Assembly (NCBI RefSeq): GCF_056746865.1
Contig: NZ_CM163382.1
DNA length: 64,000 bases
Reading direction: 5' to 3' (one strand)
Of the stretch, positions 18,001-24,000 are shown piece after piece. A program made the position numbers. Every line of letters starts with the position of its first letter. Position 1 is the first letter of the stretch.

Positions 18001-21000
18001 CGCAAGGCCTGCGCCAAAAACCGTATCACTTTTGTCACTGCCTTTGTATTTATCCGCCCATGCCCCTTCACCATCAACGAAACGTTGCTCTGAAAGTGAC
18101 ATAACAGAAACACCGGCTTTACCGGTCACATAAAAGCCAGTTTTGTTCTCATCAGCCAGAGTCTGGGCCGAAAACATGCCTGCCATTGCAAGTGTTGAAA
18201 CAGCAATAACCTTTTTCATTTCAATCATCTCCGTTGGTTCTTACCCCACCCGATAAAGAAGGTTGCTCATTTTAAAACCATGCAAAAGACAAGGTAAAAA
18301 GAGAAAATTCGATCGAATCGATCGACAAAATCGATCATGAATGATGAAGATTTCTTATCGAAGACATGAAAATGATAAGGAATGGTTTAAGAGGTAATTG
18401 CAACGGCATGGAAGTATTGAGACCAGAACAGCACGAGATAAAGCGGCTGAACGTCAGATGAGCCACATGGACGTAACTCAGTGCAGGCAGCGTATATCCA
18501 TAAAGCGGAGCATCTGGATGAGCGCAAGCTGATGCTGCAGTGGTGGGCAGATTTTCTGGATGCCAATCGGGAGAGAGCGATTACGCCGTTTGACTATGCG
18601 AAGATCAATCGGGGTAATGGCGAGTGAGTTGTTTATCAAATTTGCTAAATTAAAACTATTTAACCTGCCTTATAGGGACGATTGGTTGGCTATTTCACTA
18701 GAAGTAATGTAGATAACAGAAGCCTGGTCTATCATTTTGATAGACCAGGTCAAGATTAATAGAATTAGATTTTTTATTGGCGTGTTGAATAAATTTTAAA
18801 GGGTCCTAATAAGTTTGTAGGATTTAATTGAAAACAGTAAGGGAAATACTTAACATATAACTTCACGCTCTTCTATTAAATCAAAAACATTATTCGTAGT
18901 GTAATGTTCCCATCTTTTATTATATCCCTCTTTCGACAAAATTGAGACATCATCCGTTCCTTCTCCCTCATCTAAACCATGCATGAAACAAACTCCAGCA
19001 ACATTAGAAAGAACATATCTATTATGCAGACATTCATTACCCTCGCGAGAAGTTAAAGACTTAAATGTTACTGATAATTTAAAATCGTCTGGAAAGACAA
19101 GGTTTTCGCGGTTCAACTTATTAGCCAAATAATTCACCGTTGGGGAGTTTTCTTTACTCCCATCAAATATAACATCTATCTTTAAATTTTTTTTATAAGA
19201 GTTATTAGCACTAACGCTAAGTAATGAAATAAATACATTCCACCATCTTTGTTTGTCACTAAAGTATGGGTCAACTATAATAATATGCTCTGATGTTTTT
19301 AATAAGCGTGAGATTATAGATATCATATCCTCAGCAATTCTAGCAACAATTTTTTGCCGAGCATAATTTAACCCAAAGAAATCATCTATATTAGTTACAT
19401 CAAGGTTATCACAAGGAGTAGAACTCACTACATGATCAAATTGTTCAATTCGATTTACAGCAGAGATGTTATCTGACCATGACATGTCACCAACATAATC
19501 ATAAACCCTACTAACCTTATTATTTTTCAAAAAAATAATAAGGTCCTCTAATCGTTTTTTTTGAAGTTCACTATGATTAGCATTTAATAGCCCAAGCAAT
19601 TGTTTTTTATTTCTCTTCAGCTTTGGTAATTCACTATAGAGAAAGTTACCGCCCGTAGAAAATCCTTTTATGAAGTCACGATAATTTCTCCGATCAATTG
19701 CGATCTCAAACAAAGCCTCTGGTGAAATGGCGCATTCGTAGAACATTAAAAAAGCTCTCCCCTTCTTTCTTCGAAGAAACCTTTGGGCCATTTTTGTTTG
19801 AAGTCACCATCATCAGTAATATCTATTTTCCTAGTAACAGTCGAACCATTATTATCCTCGAAAACGATCACTGATATAAAATCAGGTTTTACTGGGTAAT
19901 TTGATTCAGGTAATTCATTGTCCGTTGTTTGTCTAATTCTTTTTAAAATTCGAAGCAAAATGTGCTCACTATGTGTTTCGACTAAAAACATAGGTCTTTT
20001 AACATCAAGGGGATATTGGGTAAACAGATCACCTACAGCGAGTTGTAAAGCGGGATGAATATGTAGCTCAGGCTGCTCTATAGCAATTAATCCATCCTGA
20101 ACTATATTGGCTGCAATAATAAGAGGTGCTATCTGAGTTAATCCGACACCGACTTGATTTGGAAATAACATTTGGCTTGAATCTATTTTACAGAAGTAAA
20201 CATTATCTTTCAGACCTAAAAGTTGAGGGGAGGTTTTTATATCAAATTCTCCTCCACTAAATATATTATAATTAGTGTTTAGTTTATCTCTATTGGAAAA
20301 CCAATCACTTACTTTTTTAATCAAATCACTATCATTTTGTTGAGATAAACACAGCTTATCCCATGCTGATGTACCATCAAACCATCCATTTTGTTCTGGA
20401 TAAGGATTTGGCGTAAATGAAGAATCAGGTATAATTCTTAACGGTCCAATAGATACGCTAGCCTTTAAATAATTATTTAATTTATCTAACGGAGAAGTAA
20501 AAACTTGCGTTAGCACTCTGGTGATTATATCTCGATTAAAATACTCAACTGGCTCGGATATATCAAAAACTTTCAAATTTGTATCAACAGTTCTTCCCAG
20601 TTGAGGTAACGCACCAATTTTCGTCTTTAAAAAAACAGGAAACATTGGTTTTTCTTTATCTTCTTCAAATATATAATCAACAGTTTTTACTCGCTCTGTT
20701 GCACCACTTTTATTACGTTCTAAGCCAGGAATTAAGTCATTTAAAGATATTTCAAATTCACTGGCAATCGTATCTAATCCTTCCTTATCAATAGATTCAA
20801 GCCATAAATTATAATCAATAGGAAGAAGCAACGGATGAGTAAAGTTCAATCTATTTACTAAAGATGATTTAGTATACTCATCATTACTTAGCTCTCCAAT
20901 AAATTCATTATTTATAGAAACAGCATAGTTCTTTATATATGCTGCTCTGTGCAATTGTGACCATGCGATTTTAAACTCTACATAAACCTTTTCAGTTTCA

Positions 21001-24000
21001 TCTGCAATGTCTTTCATTTTTATAAAATGAATATCGAAAATATCACCAAGTTCTTCTAAATATGTTTTATATTCTACACCTATTGTTTGTTCAGGATCGA
21101 AACCGATACCAATAGTAATTACATTATTCAGATCCCCATTATGGACTAGAGATCTAAATCCATCTATGCGCCTGTTCCCCATAGCTTCTAAATATATAGG
21201 ATCACACTGCTCACGGTCTAATATTTGTTGAAGATAAAATAATGCAATTAAAATAGTAGTCTTGCCCGCGCTGTTTGGCCCCAATAGTAATGTTACAGGT
21301 GCAAAATCAATTTCCTGCCGCTCTCTAACAGATCTGAAATTTTCAAGTACAAGTTTAGTTAATTTCATAATGAACCTTACATGAAATATTTATTCGATAG
21401 GTTTGATGCTAAAAGTTGAAGTTGCATTGCGCTTTTATCATAAATGCTTAGTCCTTTTTTTATTTTTTTATAAATAATCTCATACTCATCTTGTAGATGC
21501 TTAGGTGGGATTAATATCTCTATATTCTGCAATTCCTGTGCATTAATATTAGCCATGCCAACAATACTTTTACACATATTCATCAATGTGATTTTGCCAT
21601 GGATGGAATTAAGATACCCTGAAATATAGTAGTTATTTCCGATAGAATTAGGTCTAACGCGGATTAAATATCCAGCAAATGCCATAGGCCTGTCTTCTTC
21701 ATACACAGCTGTTTTACCAACAAGTTCCTTACTGTTAGTACGATTGAAAAGAAGATCGCCTTCTTTAACCAAATATTTATCCTTTTCTTTTACACTGAGA
21801 TCAAGATATTTTAAATCTGTAAAATCCCACCTACCTTGATATGTTATATTACCCATCCGTAATATAGGATATTCACCAGAATCAATAGAGGCTTTTGCTG
21901 AAGTTCCATAATTTACTGAATCAACCAAGTCGCGAATCGTTCCTTTCGGGAAACGATGTATGTTGTTTGCAGGAGTTCCAAACATCTCTAGAAACTTAGC
22001 CCGCAAAAAATCATCAGCCAGTTTGATGGCTTGTTCGCGCTTTTGGCGTATAGCATCAGCTTTATCAAGAATAGCAGCAATGCGTTTTTGTTCTTTTAAT
22101 GAAGGAAGCCTAATTTTAATATCTTGTATCTTTTTTACAGACAAATGTTTTACAGTCACAACATCTGTTGTAGCATGAATTTTATCCAATTCCTTTTGCA
22201 AGAAATGATATAGAAAATTTTTATCAAGTGTTTCAGGATTTGGCGTAATTTTACATACCCGTTGATTTAACAACGCATCAGTACCTTTCCAATACTCACG
22301 GTTGAAATCTCCATCCATCCCAACTAGTAAATCACCTTTTTTAATAAGATATTTTAAGTCATAACTGCCTTCATAATAAGTTTCGGTTTTTCCTGAAAGA
22401 ATATCTCTAATACGGATTAGTGGAACACCATTGTTCCTATTGAATCCACTTGAAGGGAATGCACACCCGGACAATATGTCTATATGTTTGCCAAGTGTGA
22501 CCAATTGATTTTTTTTCACAGCATCCCCTCCAGCTCATCCAGATCCGCCAGAATCTCTTTTTCCAGATCTTTTAACCGCTTCAATATCACCTTCGGATCT
22601 TCATACTCCTCAGCCTGATACACCACTTCTTTATAACGATTAATAGAGAGATCGTATTTCTGGGCAGCAATATCTTCTTTTGGCACTATAAACGCCGCCT
22701 GAGTGCGATCTTTAAAATCAACGCCAGCATCAATCCCTTCCGGGTACTGCTGTTTCAGCAACGAGGCTAACTTCTCACCCATAAAGTTATCAACCGGCAG
22801 CCCGCGTAAAGTACGGTAATGCTTCCAGCTTGCCAGCAGATGCGGCAGGTCGTTGTCTTTAATTGGGTTACGCTTGTCATCCAGGCTGTAGCCATCATTT
22901 TGCAGATCGTAGAACCAGACCTCGTCCGTCTGACCGCCTTTGGTAAAGATCAGGATCGCCGTCGCCACGCCAGCGTAAGGTTTAAATACGCCGGAAGGCA
23001 GGTTGATCACCGCTTCCAGTTGGTTATCTTCCACCAGCGTTTTGCGAAGTGACTGGTGCGCCTTACTGGAGCCAAACAGCACGCCCTGCGGCACGATAGT
23101 GGCACTGCGCCCGCCCACTTTCAGCATTTGCAGAATACGCGCCAGGAACAGTAGTTCGGTTTTTTTGGTTTTCACCATTGCCGACAGCGTGGAGTCGATA
23201 TCTTCTTCGTCCAGTGAACCGGTAAACGGCGGGTTTGCCAGAATCAGGTTGAAAGCGTTTTTACTGGCCTGCGGGAAGTTTGTGCTGAAGCTCTGGCTCA
23301 TGGTGTCCTGATAGTGGATATCCGGCGCTTCCACGCCGTGCATAATCAGGTTCATGGCGGCGATACGTAACATTGTGGTGTCAAAGTCGTAACCGTGGAA
23401 CATATTGTTATCCACATGGTTACGCCACGGGGTCAACAGATCGCCGGTAAAGATTTTTTGCTCTTCCAGCTCACCACGTTCGTTGGTGCCAATCTCGGTA
23501 TGAATGGATTCCAGCGAGCTGTACTTCTCCAGTAGATATTCATAGCTGGTTGCCAGAAAGCCACCGGTGCCGCAGGCCGGATCGCAAATCGTCTCGCCGC
23601 GGGCGGGGTTCGGCTCCATCATTTCAACCATCGTGCGGATAATGTGGCGCGGTGTGCGAAACTGGCCGTTGATTCCGGCAGTGGTCAGCTTGCTTAACAG
23701 GTATTCGTAAAGGTCGCCTTTGGTGTCGCCGCGATCCAATGGCAGGTTTTTGATCACCTCAACCGCTTTGGTCAGCAATGAAGGCTTAACAATCTCCAGA
23801 CGGGCATCTTTCATAAAGTTGCCCAGCAGCGTTACCTTCGACGCATCAGCCTGGCCGAGCTGACGAAAATGCTGGAATACACCATCGCGCACCACTTCCA
23901 TCATCTCATCCGAGCCAAGATTGCTATAGTGACTGAAACGGAACTCCTGCTGTTCTGGTGCAAAACGCGGTTTAAAATCAATACCCGCGATTTGTTTACG

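What the first reader, a model, noticed from the sequence alone, without database searches (positions are those of the whole stretch)
18850..21368. ABC-type ATPase plus 298-aa partner hard-wired to the 3' end of the type I R-M operon
hsdR-hsdM-hsdS is followed 9 bp later by a 540-aa RecF/SMC-like ATPase (Walker A GPNSAGKTT, H-loop ETHSEH) whose stop overlaps the start of a 298-aa protein in TAATG. Both genes share the AT-rich composition of hsdS, unlike hsdR and hsdM.

An ATPase of this size with a ~300-aa partner is the architecture of AbiL/PARIS-type or Septu-like two-gene defence systems, but I could not see a TOPRIM or HNH signature in the partner, so the effector chemistry is open. Tight coupling to hsdS suggests a linked second line of defence.
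Basis: partly seen in the sequence, partly recalled or inferred. Interest (0 to 1): 0.7.

Follow-up and report, generated by a model that had tools for sequence, protein, structure and literature searches.

The report
Menshen-like ATPase–nuclease pair behind hsdS
Two genes fused to the end of an E. coli type I restriction operon encode an SMC-like ATPase and a previously unnamed PIN-like plus phospholipase-D-like protein, which look like an untested anti-phage module related to Menshen but missing Menshen's sensor gene.

Summary
On the minus strand hsdR, hsdM and hsdS are followed 8 nt later by a 540-aa ABC ATPase. Its TAA stop overlaps the ATG of a 298-aa protein. hsdS and both genes are 33-34% GC, against 51% for hsdR and hsdM.

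The ATPase is an NsnB-type (Menshen) SMC/Rad50-class head. It has the family's odd motifs (GxG signature, EQ Walker B) and a DUF3696-like tail. The partner has no Pfam, NCBIfam, PHROG or significant PADLOC match, yet it belongs to a family of at least 1000 clusters. A model with pLDDT 97 shows a PIN-like fold plus a PLD-like fold. Motif positions place PIN at the N-terminus and PLD at the C-terminus. The PLD part carries a near-invariant HxR-x4-[D/E/N] motif. This is the "inPIN + PB-PLD1" architecture published for Menshen NsnC.

Menshen's defining NsnA/DUF262 gene is absent here and in about 60 related loci. Instead the pair follows type I hsd genes (two families, two gene orders) or an RtcR-like CARF-sigma54 activator.

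Most likely it is an ATPase-gated nuclease acting as a second defence layer co-transcribed with hsdMS. This is a new variant of a known kind, untested experimentally, and of moderate interest. The trigger, the substrate and any functional link to restriction are inferred.

The parts
24214..27630 (-). hsdR, type I restriction subunit (1138 aa, TTG start) with an N-terminal extension of about 210 aa
   Evidence: ORF. PADLOC REase_I E 1.7e-273; residues 5-212 match PDC-M16A E 1.5e-40. The homologue in L002 carries Pfam DUF4145 (weak), HSDR_N (weak), ResIII and EcoEI_R_C. A D...ExK nuclease motif (ADYVLW...VVEAKK) is visible in the translation.
24182..24201 (-). Terminator-like hairpin between hsdR and hsdM
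   Evidence: 8-bp stem with 6 GC pairs and a T-rich tail. It suggests hsdR is a separate transcription unit from hsdM onward. This is a consensus match only.
22516..24150 (-). hsdM, type I methyltransferase (544 aa). Its stop overlaps the hsdS start, and 22516 is the recombination breakpoint.
   Evidence: PADLOC MTase_I E 7.5e-193. Homology to the pair-less E. coli allele L059 (96% identity) and to L002 ends at 22516 and about 22501 respectively.
21377..22519 (-). hsdS, specificity subunit (380 aa, GTG start), AT-rich
   Evidence: PADLOC Specificity_I E 2.8e-155. GC 0.339.
19746..21368 (-). NsnB-like ABC ATPase (540 aa). SMC/Rad50-class head without a coiled coil, a hypervariable insert at about residues 96-300, and a DUF3696-like C-terminal tail.
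18850..19746 (-). NsnC-like partner (298 aa). Inferred layout: an N-terminal PIN-like domain lacking the catalytic tetrad, and a C-terminal PLD/MIT_C-like domain with D159 and H241-N-R243-x4-N248.
18723..18749 (-). Terminator-like hairpin about 100 nt after the partner stop
   Evidence: 12-bp stem CCTGGTCTATCA/TGATAGACCAGG. No comparable hairpin lies between hsdM and the partner. This fits an hsdM-hsdS-ATPase-partner transcript, but it is a consensus match only.
18443..18627 (+). Remnant of a P4-type tyrosine integrase gene flanking the cassette
   Evidence: RefSeq pseudogene 'integrase, frameshifted, missing N-terminus' (L001 coordinate + 4699). Window 18449-18602 is 80% identical to the intact 417-aa integrase that follows the partner in L002.

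Best explanation
The two genes form an autonomous two-component anti-phage module of the Menshen NsnB/NsnC type that lacks the NsnA sensor. It is co-transcribed with hsdM-hsdS of a type I R-M system on an integrative island.

Proposed mechanism:
1. The SMC-like ABC ATPase oligomerises and holds the partner inactive. This probably involves its conserved C-terminal WPxGFFxER tail binding the partner's PIN-like domain.
2. The ATPase's hypervariable insert (about residues 96-300) senses an infection cue.
3. ATP binding, with the slow hydrolysis expected from an EQ Walker B, switches the complex and releases or activates the partner.
4. The partner has a single HxR-x4-[D/E/N] PLD-type half-site, so it must pair with a second copy to form an active centre. 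It then cuts nucleic acid and stops phage replication or host growth.

Shown here: the domain identities, the conserved catalytic-type residues, the obligatory gene pairing with translational coupling, and the conserved linkage to hsd genes.

Inferred: complex formation, the trigger, the substrate, dimer activation, and the anti-phage phenotype itself.
For: ATPase is NsnB-like:
- PADLOC NsnB E 3.2e-37.
- hhalign 99.5%, E 4e-23, end-to-end against a DUF262-adjacent NsnB.
- It shares the deviations Li et al. list for NsnB (PMC12065111): a GxG signature (G407 and G409, 100%), Walker B E431-Q432 rather than DE, and a conserved R311.
- The C-terminal tail is conserved (W527, P528, G530, F531, F532, E534, E538 invariant).

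Partner matches the NsnC architecture:
- H241 is 98% conserved, R243 100%, D159 is acidic in 99%, and HxRx4[D/E/N] occurs in 80 of 86 sequences. Li et al. describe a D/E plus HDR signature for PB-PLD1.
- A paralogue in L032 has HDR itself.
- Weak, consistent sequence signals point the same way: PADLOC NsnC at 0.003-0.005 in two members, the BrxL C-terminus at 6e-4, and Pfam MIT_C in three members.

Pairing: the ATPase is immediately upstream of the partner in 42 of 44 loci, mostly with overlapping or 0-4 nt junctions. In the window the junction is TAATG.

Operon: an 8-nt hsdS-ATPase spacer, and hairpins only after hsdR and after the partner.

Defence context:
- Of 32 loci with at least 7 kb upstream of the ATPase, 23 have hsdS upstream on the same strand and 15 have it within 300 bp.
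- Two hsd families and an M-S-R gene order also carry the pair.
- hsd family tracks the ATPase clade.
- The window itself is a defence island with a dGTPase and PDC and PD-Lambda-2-like genes.

Precedent: related ABC ATPase plus effector pairs embedded in R-M-like systems were shown to defend, with both genes required for HEC-02 and HEC-03 (Payne et al. preprint).
Against: - No experiment exists for this pair. No paper in the searchable library cites WP_000778955 or WP_000499115.
- Menshen's defining NsnA is absent, so the sensing logic cannot simply be copied from the Menshen proposals.
- The PLD motif has Arg instead of the canonical Lys. The E. coli clade has N248 where most members have D or E, and S8 and F35 where the family has D/E and R.
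- The closest PLD-like structures include non-catalytic ones: MITD1 MIT_C, FAM83 and TrmB.
- The partner's match to the PADLOC NsnC model is marginal (0.0032). It shows no similarity to the NsnC of the one genuine Menshen locus compared.
- The context statistics come from loci found with one peptide pattern, so they sample one part of the family.
Confidence: 0.6

Rival explanations
1. Guard of the restriction system. The pair specifically monitors the adjacent type I R-M complex and fires when a phage anti-restriction protein (an Ocr/ArdA-type DNA mimic or an Stp-type peptide) disables HsdMS/R. PrrC works this way with EcoprrI, and PARIS responds to Ocr.
For: Co-transcription with hsdMS. Conserved same-strand linkage to hsdS in 23 of 32 loci, across two hsd families and two gene orders. 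ATPase clades track the hsd family, and HsdR/HsdM distances correlate with ATPase distances (Spearman 0.57 and 0.50). The ATPase matches an AriA model over its full length (E 5.5e-22). Known ABC-ATPase systems are triggered by anti-restriction proteins (reviewed in the Payne et al. preprint).
Against: The same pair occurs with no R-M nearby: behind RtcR-like activators in at least 7 loci, and stand-alone in others. Several loci have unrelated genes inserted between hsdS and the ATPase. HsdS distances do not correlate with the ATPase or the partner (0.11 and -0.04). No interaction evidence exists.
Confidence: 0.22
2. Neighbours only. The pair is an independent defence or toxin-antitoxin-like cassette that travels with hsdS because defence genes accumulate and recombine as blocks in islands. 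There is no functional cross-talk with restriction.
For: The pair is autonomous in other contexts. The [hsdS-ATPase-partner] block is exchanged as a unit at the hsdM stop, and 96%-identical hsdRM alleles carry a different hsdS plus an unrelated 228-aa gene. The block's GC is about 17 points below hsdRM. An integrase and many other defence genes flank it.
Against: The 8-nt spacing without a terminator, and recurrence of the exact position directly after hsdS in 15 loci from distant phyla, are more than island clustering predicts. hsd family-specific ATPase clades imply long co-inheritance.
Confidence: 0.3
3. The PLD-like domain is not an enzyme. Like MITD1 MIT_C or FAM83, it binds a ligand, a membrane or nucleic acid. 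The partner would then act as an adaptor or membrane-targeting effector, or the ATPase-partner complex would regulate the R-M enzyme (for example restriction alleviation) rather than killing.
Against: Near-invariance of H241, R243, D159 and G257 over 86 sequences at 23-38% identity is typical of an active site. Nucleases such as NucT, Nuc, SauUSI, Zucchini, BfiI and NgoAVII score equally well. All other NsnC C-terminal domains classified by Li et al. are predicted nucleases or toxins.
Confidence: 0.15

Closest known systems
Menshen (NsnA-NsnB-NsnC; Millman et al. 2022; domain analysis in Li et al. 2025, PMC12065111)
   Same: The ATPase is an NsnB homologue (PADLOC 3e-37; hhalign 99.5% to a DUF262-adjacent NsnB). 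It has the same deviant motifs and a DUF3696-type tail. The partner has the NsnC layout of an inactive-PIN-like domain plus a variable effector, here of the PB-PLD1/MIT_C-like type. Menshen loci are also often next to type I R-M (27.9% are next to R-M or BREX).
   Different: No NsnA (ParB-DUF262 + ParBDB) gene is present here or in about 60 related loci. The upstream position is taken by hsdRMS or an RtcR-like regulator. The ATPase is about 180 aa longer than NsnB (540 vs about 350-365 aa) because of a large variable insert. The motif is HNR rather than HDR in most members. The partner's sequence match to the NsnC model is only marginal.
PARIS (AriA ABC ATPase + AriB DUF4435/TOPRIM)
   Different: The partner is not TOPRIM or DUF4435. 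The ATPase is closer to NsnB and PDC-M55A. No evidence exists for an Ocr trigger or a tRNA target.
HEC-03 and PDC candidates of Payne et al. 2024 (bioRxiv 10.1101/2024.01.29.577857)
   Same: ABC ATPases paired with variable partners and associated with R-M-like systems. The ATPase here hits PADLOC models HEC-03B (6.7e-25) and PDC-M55A (1.4e-40). HEC-03 (ATPase + PIN protein) was shown to defend, with both genes required.
   Different: The partner hits no HEC or PDC model. HEC-03's PIN is VapC-like, whereas here the PIN-like domain lacks the acidic tetrad and is fused to a PLD-like domain. PDC-M55 is a three-family cassette and is itself untested. The pair here follows hsdS rather than being nested between system genes.
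PrrC / RloC and RloA-RloB (type I R-M-linked ABC-ATPase effectors)
   Same: An ABC-type ATPase with a nuclease function, genetically tied to a type I hsd locus. PrrC is the paradigm of a latent effector unleashed when restriction is inhibited.
   Different: PrrC and RloC are single polypeptides with an anticodon-nuclease domain. RloB is Toprim-like. No sequence match of the partner to either was found.
PLD-superfamily nucleases (Nuc, NucT, BfiI, Zucchini, SauUSI) and the MIT_C domain of MITD1/BrxL
   Different: Arg replaces the canonical Lys. There is no significant sequence match to Pfam PLDc families. It is fused to a PIN-like domain and paired with an ABC ATPase.

Membership tests
Menshen | NsnA: an adjacent gene with ParB-DUF262 (DGxQR) and ParBDB domains | tested here: not met
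   No DUF262 gene in the RefSeq annotation within 14 kb either side. No DGxQR motif in any real ORF of the 64-kb window. Upstream genes in related loci are hsdRMS, an RtcR-like regulator or unrelated genes. A genuine DUF262-NsnB-NsnC locus was recognised with the same tools (L067).
Menshen | NsnB: an ABC ATPase (AAA_15) with a C-terminal DUF3696 and deviant motifs (GxG signature, non-DE Walker B) | tested here: met
Menshen | NsnC architecture: an N-terminal inactive PIN-like domain plus a C-terminal effector domain | tested here: met
Menshen | Sequence membership of the partner in a known NsnC family | tested here: inconclusive
   PADLOC NsnC PDLC03880 at E 0.0032 (window) and 0.0054 (P0020) over the C-domain only. 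No similarity to the NsnC of the Pantoea Menshen locus. No PB-PLD1 reference sequence was available for direct comparison.
PARIS | AriB: a DUF4435/TOPRIM effector next to AriA | tested here: not met
   The partner has no Pfam or PADLOC TOPRIM, DUF4435 or AriB hit. Its fold is PIN + PLD. The ATPase does match AriA models (5.5e-22), but less well than NsnB and PDC-M55A.
Septu | PtuA ATPase with a PtuB HNH nuclease | tested here: not met
   PtuA models match only residues 1-46, the P-loop. The partner has no HNH hit.
AbiL | AbiLi ATPase plus an AbiLii partner | tested here: not met
   AbiLi at E 2e-10 only. No AbiLii hit for the partner.
HEC-03 / PDC-M55 (PADLOC candidates) | All component families of the cassette present | tested here: not met
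   Only the ATPase models match (HEC-03B 6.7e-25, PDC-M55A 1.4e-40). Neither the partner nor 9 diverse homologues hit any HEC or PDC model. PDC-M55 is a three-family cassette.
PLD (HKD) superfamily | PLD fold with an H-x-K-x4-D motif | tested here: inconclusive
Type I restriction-modification system | hsdR, hsdM and hsdS all present and intact | tested here: met
   PADLOC REase_I 1.7e-273, MTase_I 7.5e-193, Specificity_I 2.8e-155. All three are intact ORFs.
Any anti-phage defence system | Demonstrated protection against phage | not testable with these tools
   No publication in the searchable library mentions these proteins. Plaque assays are needed.

The most novel reading that the evidence does not exclude
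The NsnB/NsnC-type ATPase-effector pair is a universal output cassette that evolution plugs behind interchangeable input devices. In Menshen the input is NsnA (ParB-DUF262). In other loci it is an RtcR-like CARF-sigma54 activator. Here it is the type I R-M complex itself. In the E. coli locus the R-M enzyme, or its inactivation by anti-restriction proteins, would then be the sensor that arms a new PLD-type nuclease. That would make it a PrrC/PARIS-like guard of restriction with a different chemistry, present in about 5% of complete E. coli genomes.
Probability: 0.2. Interest if true: 0.8.

Novelty: new variant of a known kind. Interest (0 to 1): 0.55.

Why it matters
If the pair is active, three things follow.

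1. It would show that the Menshen transducer-effector core works without NsnA. That redraws the boundaries of the family and helps separate sensing from execution.

2. It would give function to a large, unnamed protein family: at least 1000 clusters at 50% identity, all currently labelled 'hypothetical'. It would also test whether HxR MIT_C-like PLD domains, also found on BrxL and human MITD1, are enzymes.

3. It offers an easily testable E. coli case of how a second defence layer is coupled to restriction. The options are a guard of R-M or simple co-inheritance. The observation that hsdS, the ATPase and the partner are exchanged as one low-GC block is relevant to that question.

If it is inactive or merely a neighbour, it is just one more island cassette.

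Tried and rejected
No Pfam, PADLOC, NCBIfam or PHROG support. The fold says PIN + PLD.
- **Canonical Menshen.** Rejected because NsnA/DUF262 is absent.
- **PARIS, Septu, AbiL, HEC-03, PDC-M55.** Only the ATPase matches, and the effector components are missing.
- **A recurrent third gene between hsdS and the ATPase.** The inserted ORFs in the gap loci are unrelated to one another.
- **PLD effector substituting for a dead HsdR nuclease.** The HsdR D...ExK motif looks intact.
- **Sequence-level link of the partner to solved structures.** None was found: PDB profile searches gave nothing at E <= 10 with A2 and only noise with A1.
- **First attempt to scan genomes with the 86-sequence alignment.** It failed because the alignment was too diverse. 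A 15-sequence alignment worked.
- **Nat Commun 2025 anti-restriction paper (PMC12373910).** It contains nothing on this pair.
- **Sigma-70 promoter scan.** It gave no more sites than shuffled sequence, so no internal promoter is claimed.
- **AF2 complex prediction of ATPase plus partner.** Not attempted, because the tool returns no inter-chain confidence.

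
Full report
**1. Observation**

The window is E. coli chromosome. The 2.8-kb stretch occurs in 274 of 5426 complete genomes, at >=99% identity in 272 of them. All relevant genes are on the minus strand:

| Gene | Coordinates | Product |
|---|---|---|
| hsdR | 27630..24214 | 1138 aa |
| hsdM | 24150..22516 | 544 aa |
| hsdS | 22519..21377 | 380 aa |
| ATPase | 21368..19746 | 540 aa |
| partner | 19746..18850 | 298 aa |

The hsdS TAA is followed by 8 nt (GGTTCATT) and then the ATPase ATG. 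The ATPase TAA overlaps the partner ATG as TAATG, with GGGGAG 10 nt upstream. The 298-aa start is supported by homologue N-termini (M1 98% conserved) and by RefSeq.

GC content is 0.51 for hsdR and hsdM. It is 0.34, 0.33 and 0.33 for hsdS, the ATPase and the partner.

Terminator-like hairpins on this strand lie only after hsdR (24201-24182) and about 100 nt after the partner (18749-18723, a 12-bp stem). This fits an hsdM-hsdS-ATPase-partner transcript. These are consensus matches, not proof.

**2. The ATPase**

Pfam finds AAA_15, AAA_23, SMC_N and AAA_21, plus a marginal C-terminal DUF3696. PADLOC ranks the matches as follows:

| Model | E-value |
|---|---|
| PDC-M55A | 1.4e-40 |
| NsnB (Menshen) | 3.2e-37 |
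| HEC-03B | 6.7e-25 |
| AriA | 5.5e-22 |
| AbiLi | 2e-10 |

PtuA, GajA and Old match only the P-loop.

Across 44-50 homologues these features are invariant or nearly so:
- Walker A GxNSxGK[ST]
- R311 in a GPxR motif
- the signature D-h-G407-x-G409-x-S-Q412
- Walker B h4-E431-Q432-P-E434
- H-loop E464-T-H-S-E-H
- the tail W527-P-x-G-F-F-x-E-R

Li et al. 2025 describe NsnB as an AAA_15 ABC ATPase plus a DUF3696 helix. In NsnB the SGG signature is GxG, the Walker B DE is replaced (by EN), and the Q motif is an Arg (PMC12065111). The present family shows the same pattern.

A profile of the family aligns end-to-end with the NsnB of a genuine DUF262-NsnB-NsnC locus on a Pantoea plasmid (99.5% probability, E 4e-23).

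At 540 aa the protein is about 180 aa longer than NsnB. The extra length is a hypervariable, indel-rich insert at residues 96-300 (entropy 2.8-2.9 bits against 1.3 in the catalytic core). Part of it is poorly modelled, at residues 197-232.

**3. The partner**

It has no Pfam, NCBIfam or PHROG match. PADLOC gives only a marginal NsnC hit (0.0032). The word-indexed search found only enterobacterial relatives at >=74% identity.

A profile search of 1.84 billion cluster representatives found 1007 proteins at E <= 1e-3 and 371 at E <= 1e-10. Nearly all are about 300 aa and match over their full length. AFDB50 lists 308 structural matches at E <= 0.001, and the top 50 are almost all labelled 'Uncharacterized protein'.

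Conservation:
- D159 in VDPYF is acidic in 99% of sequences.
- H241 is 98% conserved, R243 100% and G257 99%.
- H-x-R-x4-[D/E/N] occurs in 80 of 86 sequences. This is the HKD spacing with Arg in place of Lys.
- In the N-domain only E4 and position 8 are commonly acidic, so there is no PIN D-E-D-D tetrad.

Li et al. describe exactly this NsnC layout: inPIN plus a C-terminal effector. One of their effector classes, PB-PLD1, is MIT_C-like with a conserved D/E and an HDR motif. Ten per cent of the present family have HDR, including a paralogue in L032.

Weak sequence signals agree. Pfam MIT_C is the only family hit by more than one member (3 of 86, best 1.8e-3). P0027 hits the BrxL C-terminus (6e-4), where Li et al. 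place MIT_C-like domains, and P0020 hits the NsnC model (0.0054).

**4. Context elsewhere**

Fifty-three loci came from one genome per species, and more came from metagenomes and plasmids.

- **Pairing.** An ATPase homologue is immediately upstream of the partner in 42 of 44 loci with enough sequence. The two exceptions, L019 and L042, also have an ATPase ORF but failed the automatic adjacency test. Junctions are mostly 0-4 nt or overlapping.
- **hsd linkage.** Of 32 loci with at least 7 kb upstream of the ATPase, 23 have hsdS upstream on the same strand, 15 have it within 300 bp, and 20 have hsdR+M+S. These are lower bounds, because hsd genes were detected with the window proteins as queries.
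- **Diversity of hsd contexts.** Two hsd families are involved (E about 0 and E about 1e-77 to the window HsdR). An M-S-R gene order and a Vibrio plasmid (partner match 99.2%) also carry the pair.
- **RtcR-like context.** In seven genome loci the gene directly upstream of the ATPase is an RtcR-like CARF-AAA-HTH activator (PADLOC E about 1e-190). One metagenome locus has a sigma54 activator there. TGGCAC-N5-TTGC-like boxes lie between regulator and ATPase in 6 of 8 of these loci. L048 carries three tandem pairs.
- **NsnA.** No locus shows NsnA/DUF262.
- **Phylogeny.** A rough NJ tree of the ATPases groups family-B hsd-linked members in one clade and most family-A members in another, with RtcR-linked members interspersed.
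- **Co-divergence.** ATPase distances correlate with HsdR and HsdM distances (Spearman 0.57 and 0.50), but HsdS does not (0.11).

**5. The E. coli locus as a swappable block**

Related hsdRM genes occur in 427 genomes, and the pair in 274. A 96%-identical hsdRM allele (L059) carries a different hsdS, then an unrelated 228-aa gene and Dsr1. Homology to the window stops exactly at the hsdM stop, 22516.

L002 has HsdR and HsdM normalised BLASTP scores to the window proteins of 0.79 and 0.86. Its HsdS, ATPase and partner score only 0.48, 0.33 and 0.37, and it shows the same GC drop. In L002 an intact P4-type integrase follows the partner, and the window retains an 80%-identical remnant at 18449-18602.

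**6. Interpretation**

The pair is best read as a Menshen-type transducer-effector core (NsnB-like plus NsnC-like) without NsnA, co-transcribed with hsdMS. Three analogies support an ATPase-gated nuclease:
- the AF3 NsnB4-NsnC2 models of Li et al., in which DUF3696 tails grip the inPIN domain;
- the solved PARIS and Septu complexes;
- the requirement of both genes in HEC-02 and HEC-03.

The partner has a single PLD half-site per chain, which suggests that activity needs two partner molecules to meet. The EQ Walker B suggests an ATP-bound switch rather than fast turnover. All of these points are inferences.

Whether the R-M enzyme is the sensor (the guard model) or only a travelling companion cannot be decided here. 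The pair's autonomy in other contexts argues against obligatory dependence. The precise, ancient and repeated placement after hsdS argues for some coupling.

**7. Novelty**

The general theme is known: ABC ATPases with variable effectors tied to R-M-like systems (PrrC, RloAB, and the HEC and PDC sets of Payne et al.). The domain types have been described for Menshen.

New here are four points:
- the NsnA-less architecture;
- the partner's large family, which has no Pfam, NCBIfam, PHROG or PADLOC model of its own;
- the alternative hsd and RtcR upstream contexts;
- the block exchange with hsdS.

No experiment or publication on these proteins was found. I rate it a new variant of a known kind, with interest 0.55.

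Noticed in passing
window 13157-17062 (minus strand): A WYL-HTH regulator (16166-17062; PADLOC WYL 2.6e-22) lies upstream of three further ORFs: a 359-aa protein (15038-16117; PDC-M09A 3.5e-22), a 523-aa protein (13420-14991; PDC-M40B 1.3e-42, which RefSeq names 'ATP--cob(I)alamin adenosyltransferase', probably wrongly), and an 88-aa Cys-rich ORF. This looks like another untested candidate defence operon that mixes parts of two PADLOC candidates.
   Followed up: partly
window 24214-27630, HsdR residues 5-212: HsdR carries an N-terminal extension of about 210 aa that matches PADLOC PDC-M16A (1.5e-40). Pfam gives a weak DUF4145 hit in the L002 homologue. This is an extra module on the restriction subunit with unknown role.
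   Followed up: no
L024, L032, L033, L048, L049, L052, L055, L060: ATPase-partner pairs sit directly behind RtcR-like CARF-sigma54-HTH activators, with TGGCAC-N5-TTGC-like boxes in 6 of 8 intergenic regions. L048 has three tandem pairs, L024 has two, and L032 has a second pair whose partner carries HDR. This suggests transcriptional induction of the module by a CARF ligand.
   Followed up: partly
window 29049-35500: More island cargo:
- a MazG-like gene (29049-29357, minus strand);
- an XRE-HTH plus peptidase-like protein (29782-30864; PD-Lambda-2_B 8.7e-30, RmrA/CapP-like);
- a 314-aa hypothetical plus a 326-aa 'thymidylate synthase' pair (30867-32788, no PADLOC hit);
- a defence dGTPase (34247-35500; 1.5e-109).

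   Followed up: partly
window 22516 (hsdM stop / hsdS start): This is a sharp recombination breakpoint. Everything 3' of hsdM (hsdS, ATPase, partner) is about 17 GC points lower and is replaced wholesale in other E. coli strains. L059 has a different hsdS, a 228-aa hypothetical and then Dsr1.
   Followed up: yes
L066 (Bacillus cereus plasmid NZ_CP040343) 4395-6856: A stand-alone DUF3696 ATPase (469 aa) plus a 352-aa hypothetical lies next to AbiGi/AbiGii, with no NsnA and no R-M. Its second gene is unrelated to the partner family (hhalign probability 0.3%). NsnA-less NsnB-type pairs with other effectors therefore also exist.
   Followed up: partly
window 9229-9866 and 18443-18627: IS1 InsA/InsB-type ORFs, one annotated as an incomplete pseudogene, and a frameshifted integrase fragment. 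ARAGORN finds no tRNA gene anywhere in the 64-kb window, so the island's attachment site is not in view.
   Followed up: no
L013 1659-7838: In one genome a CBASS-like E1-E2/JAB gene (785 aa; PADLOC JAB 3e-29 and E1-E2 7e-29) and other genes are inserted between hsdS and the ATPase-partner pair. This is an example of defence genes nesting inside the cassette.
   Followed up: no
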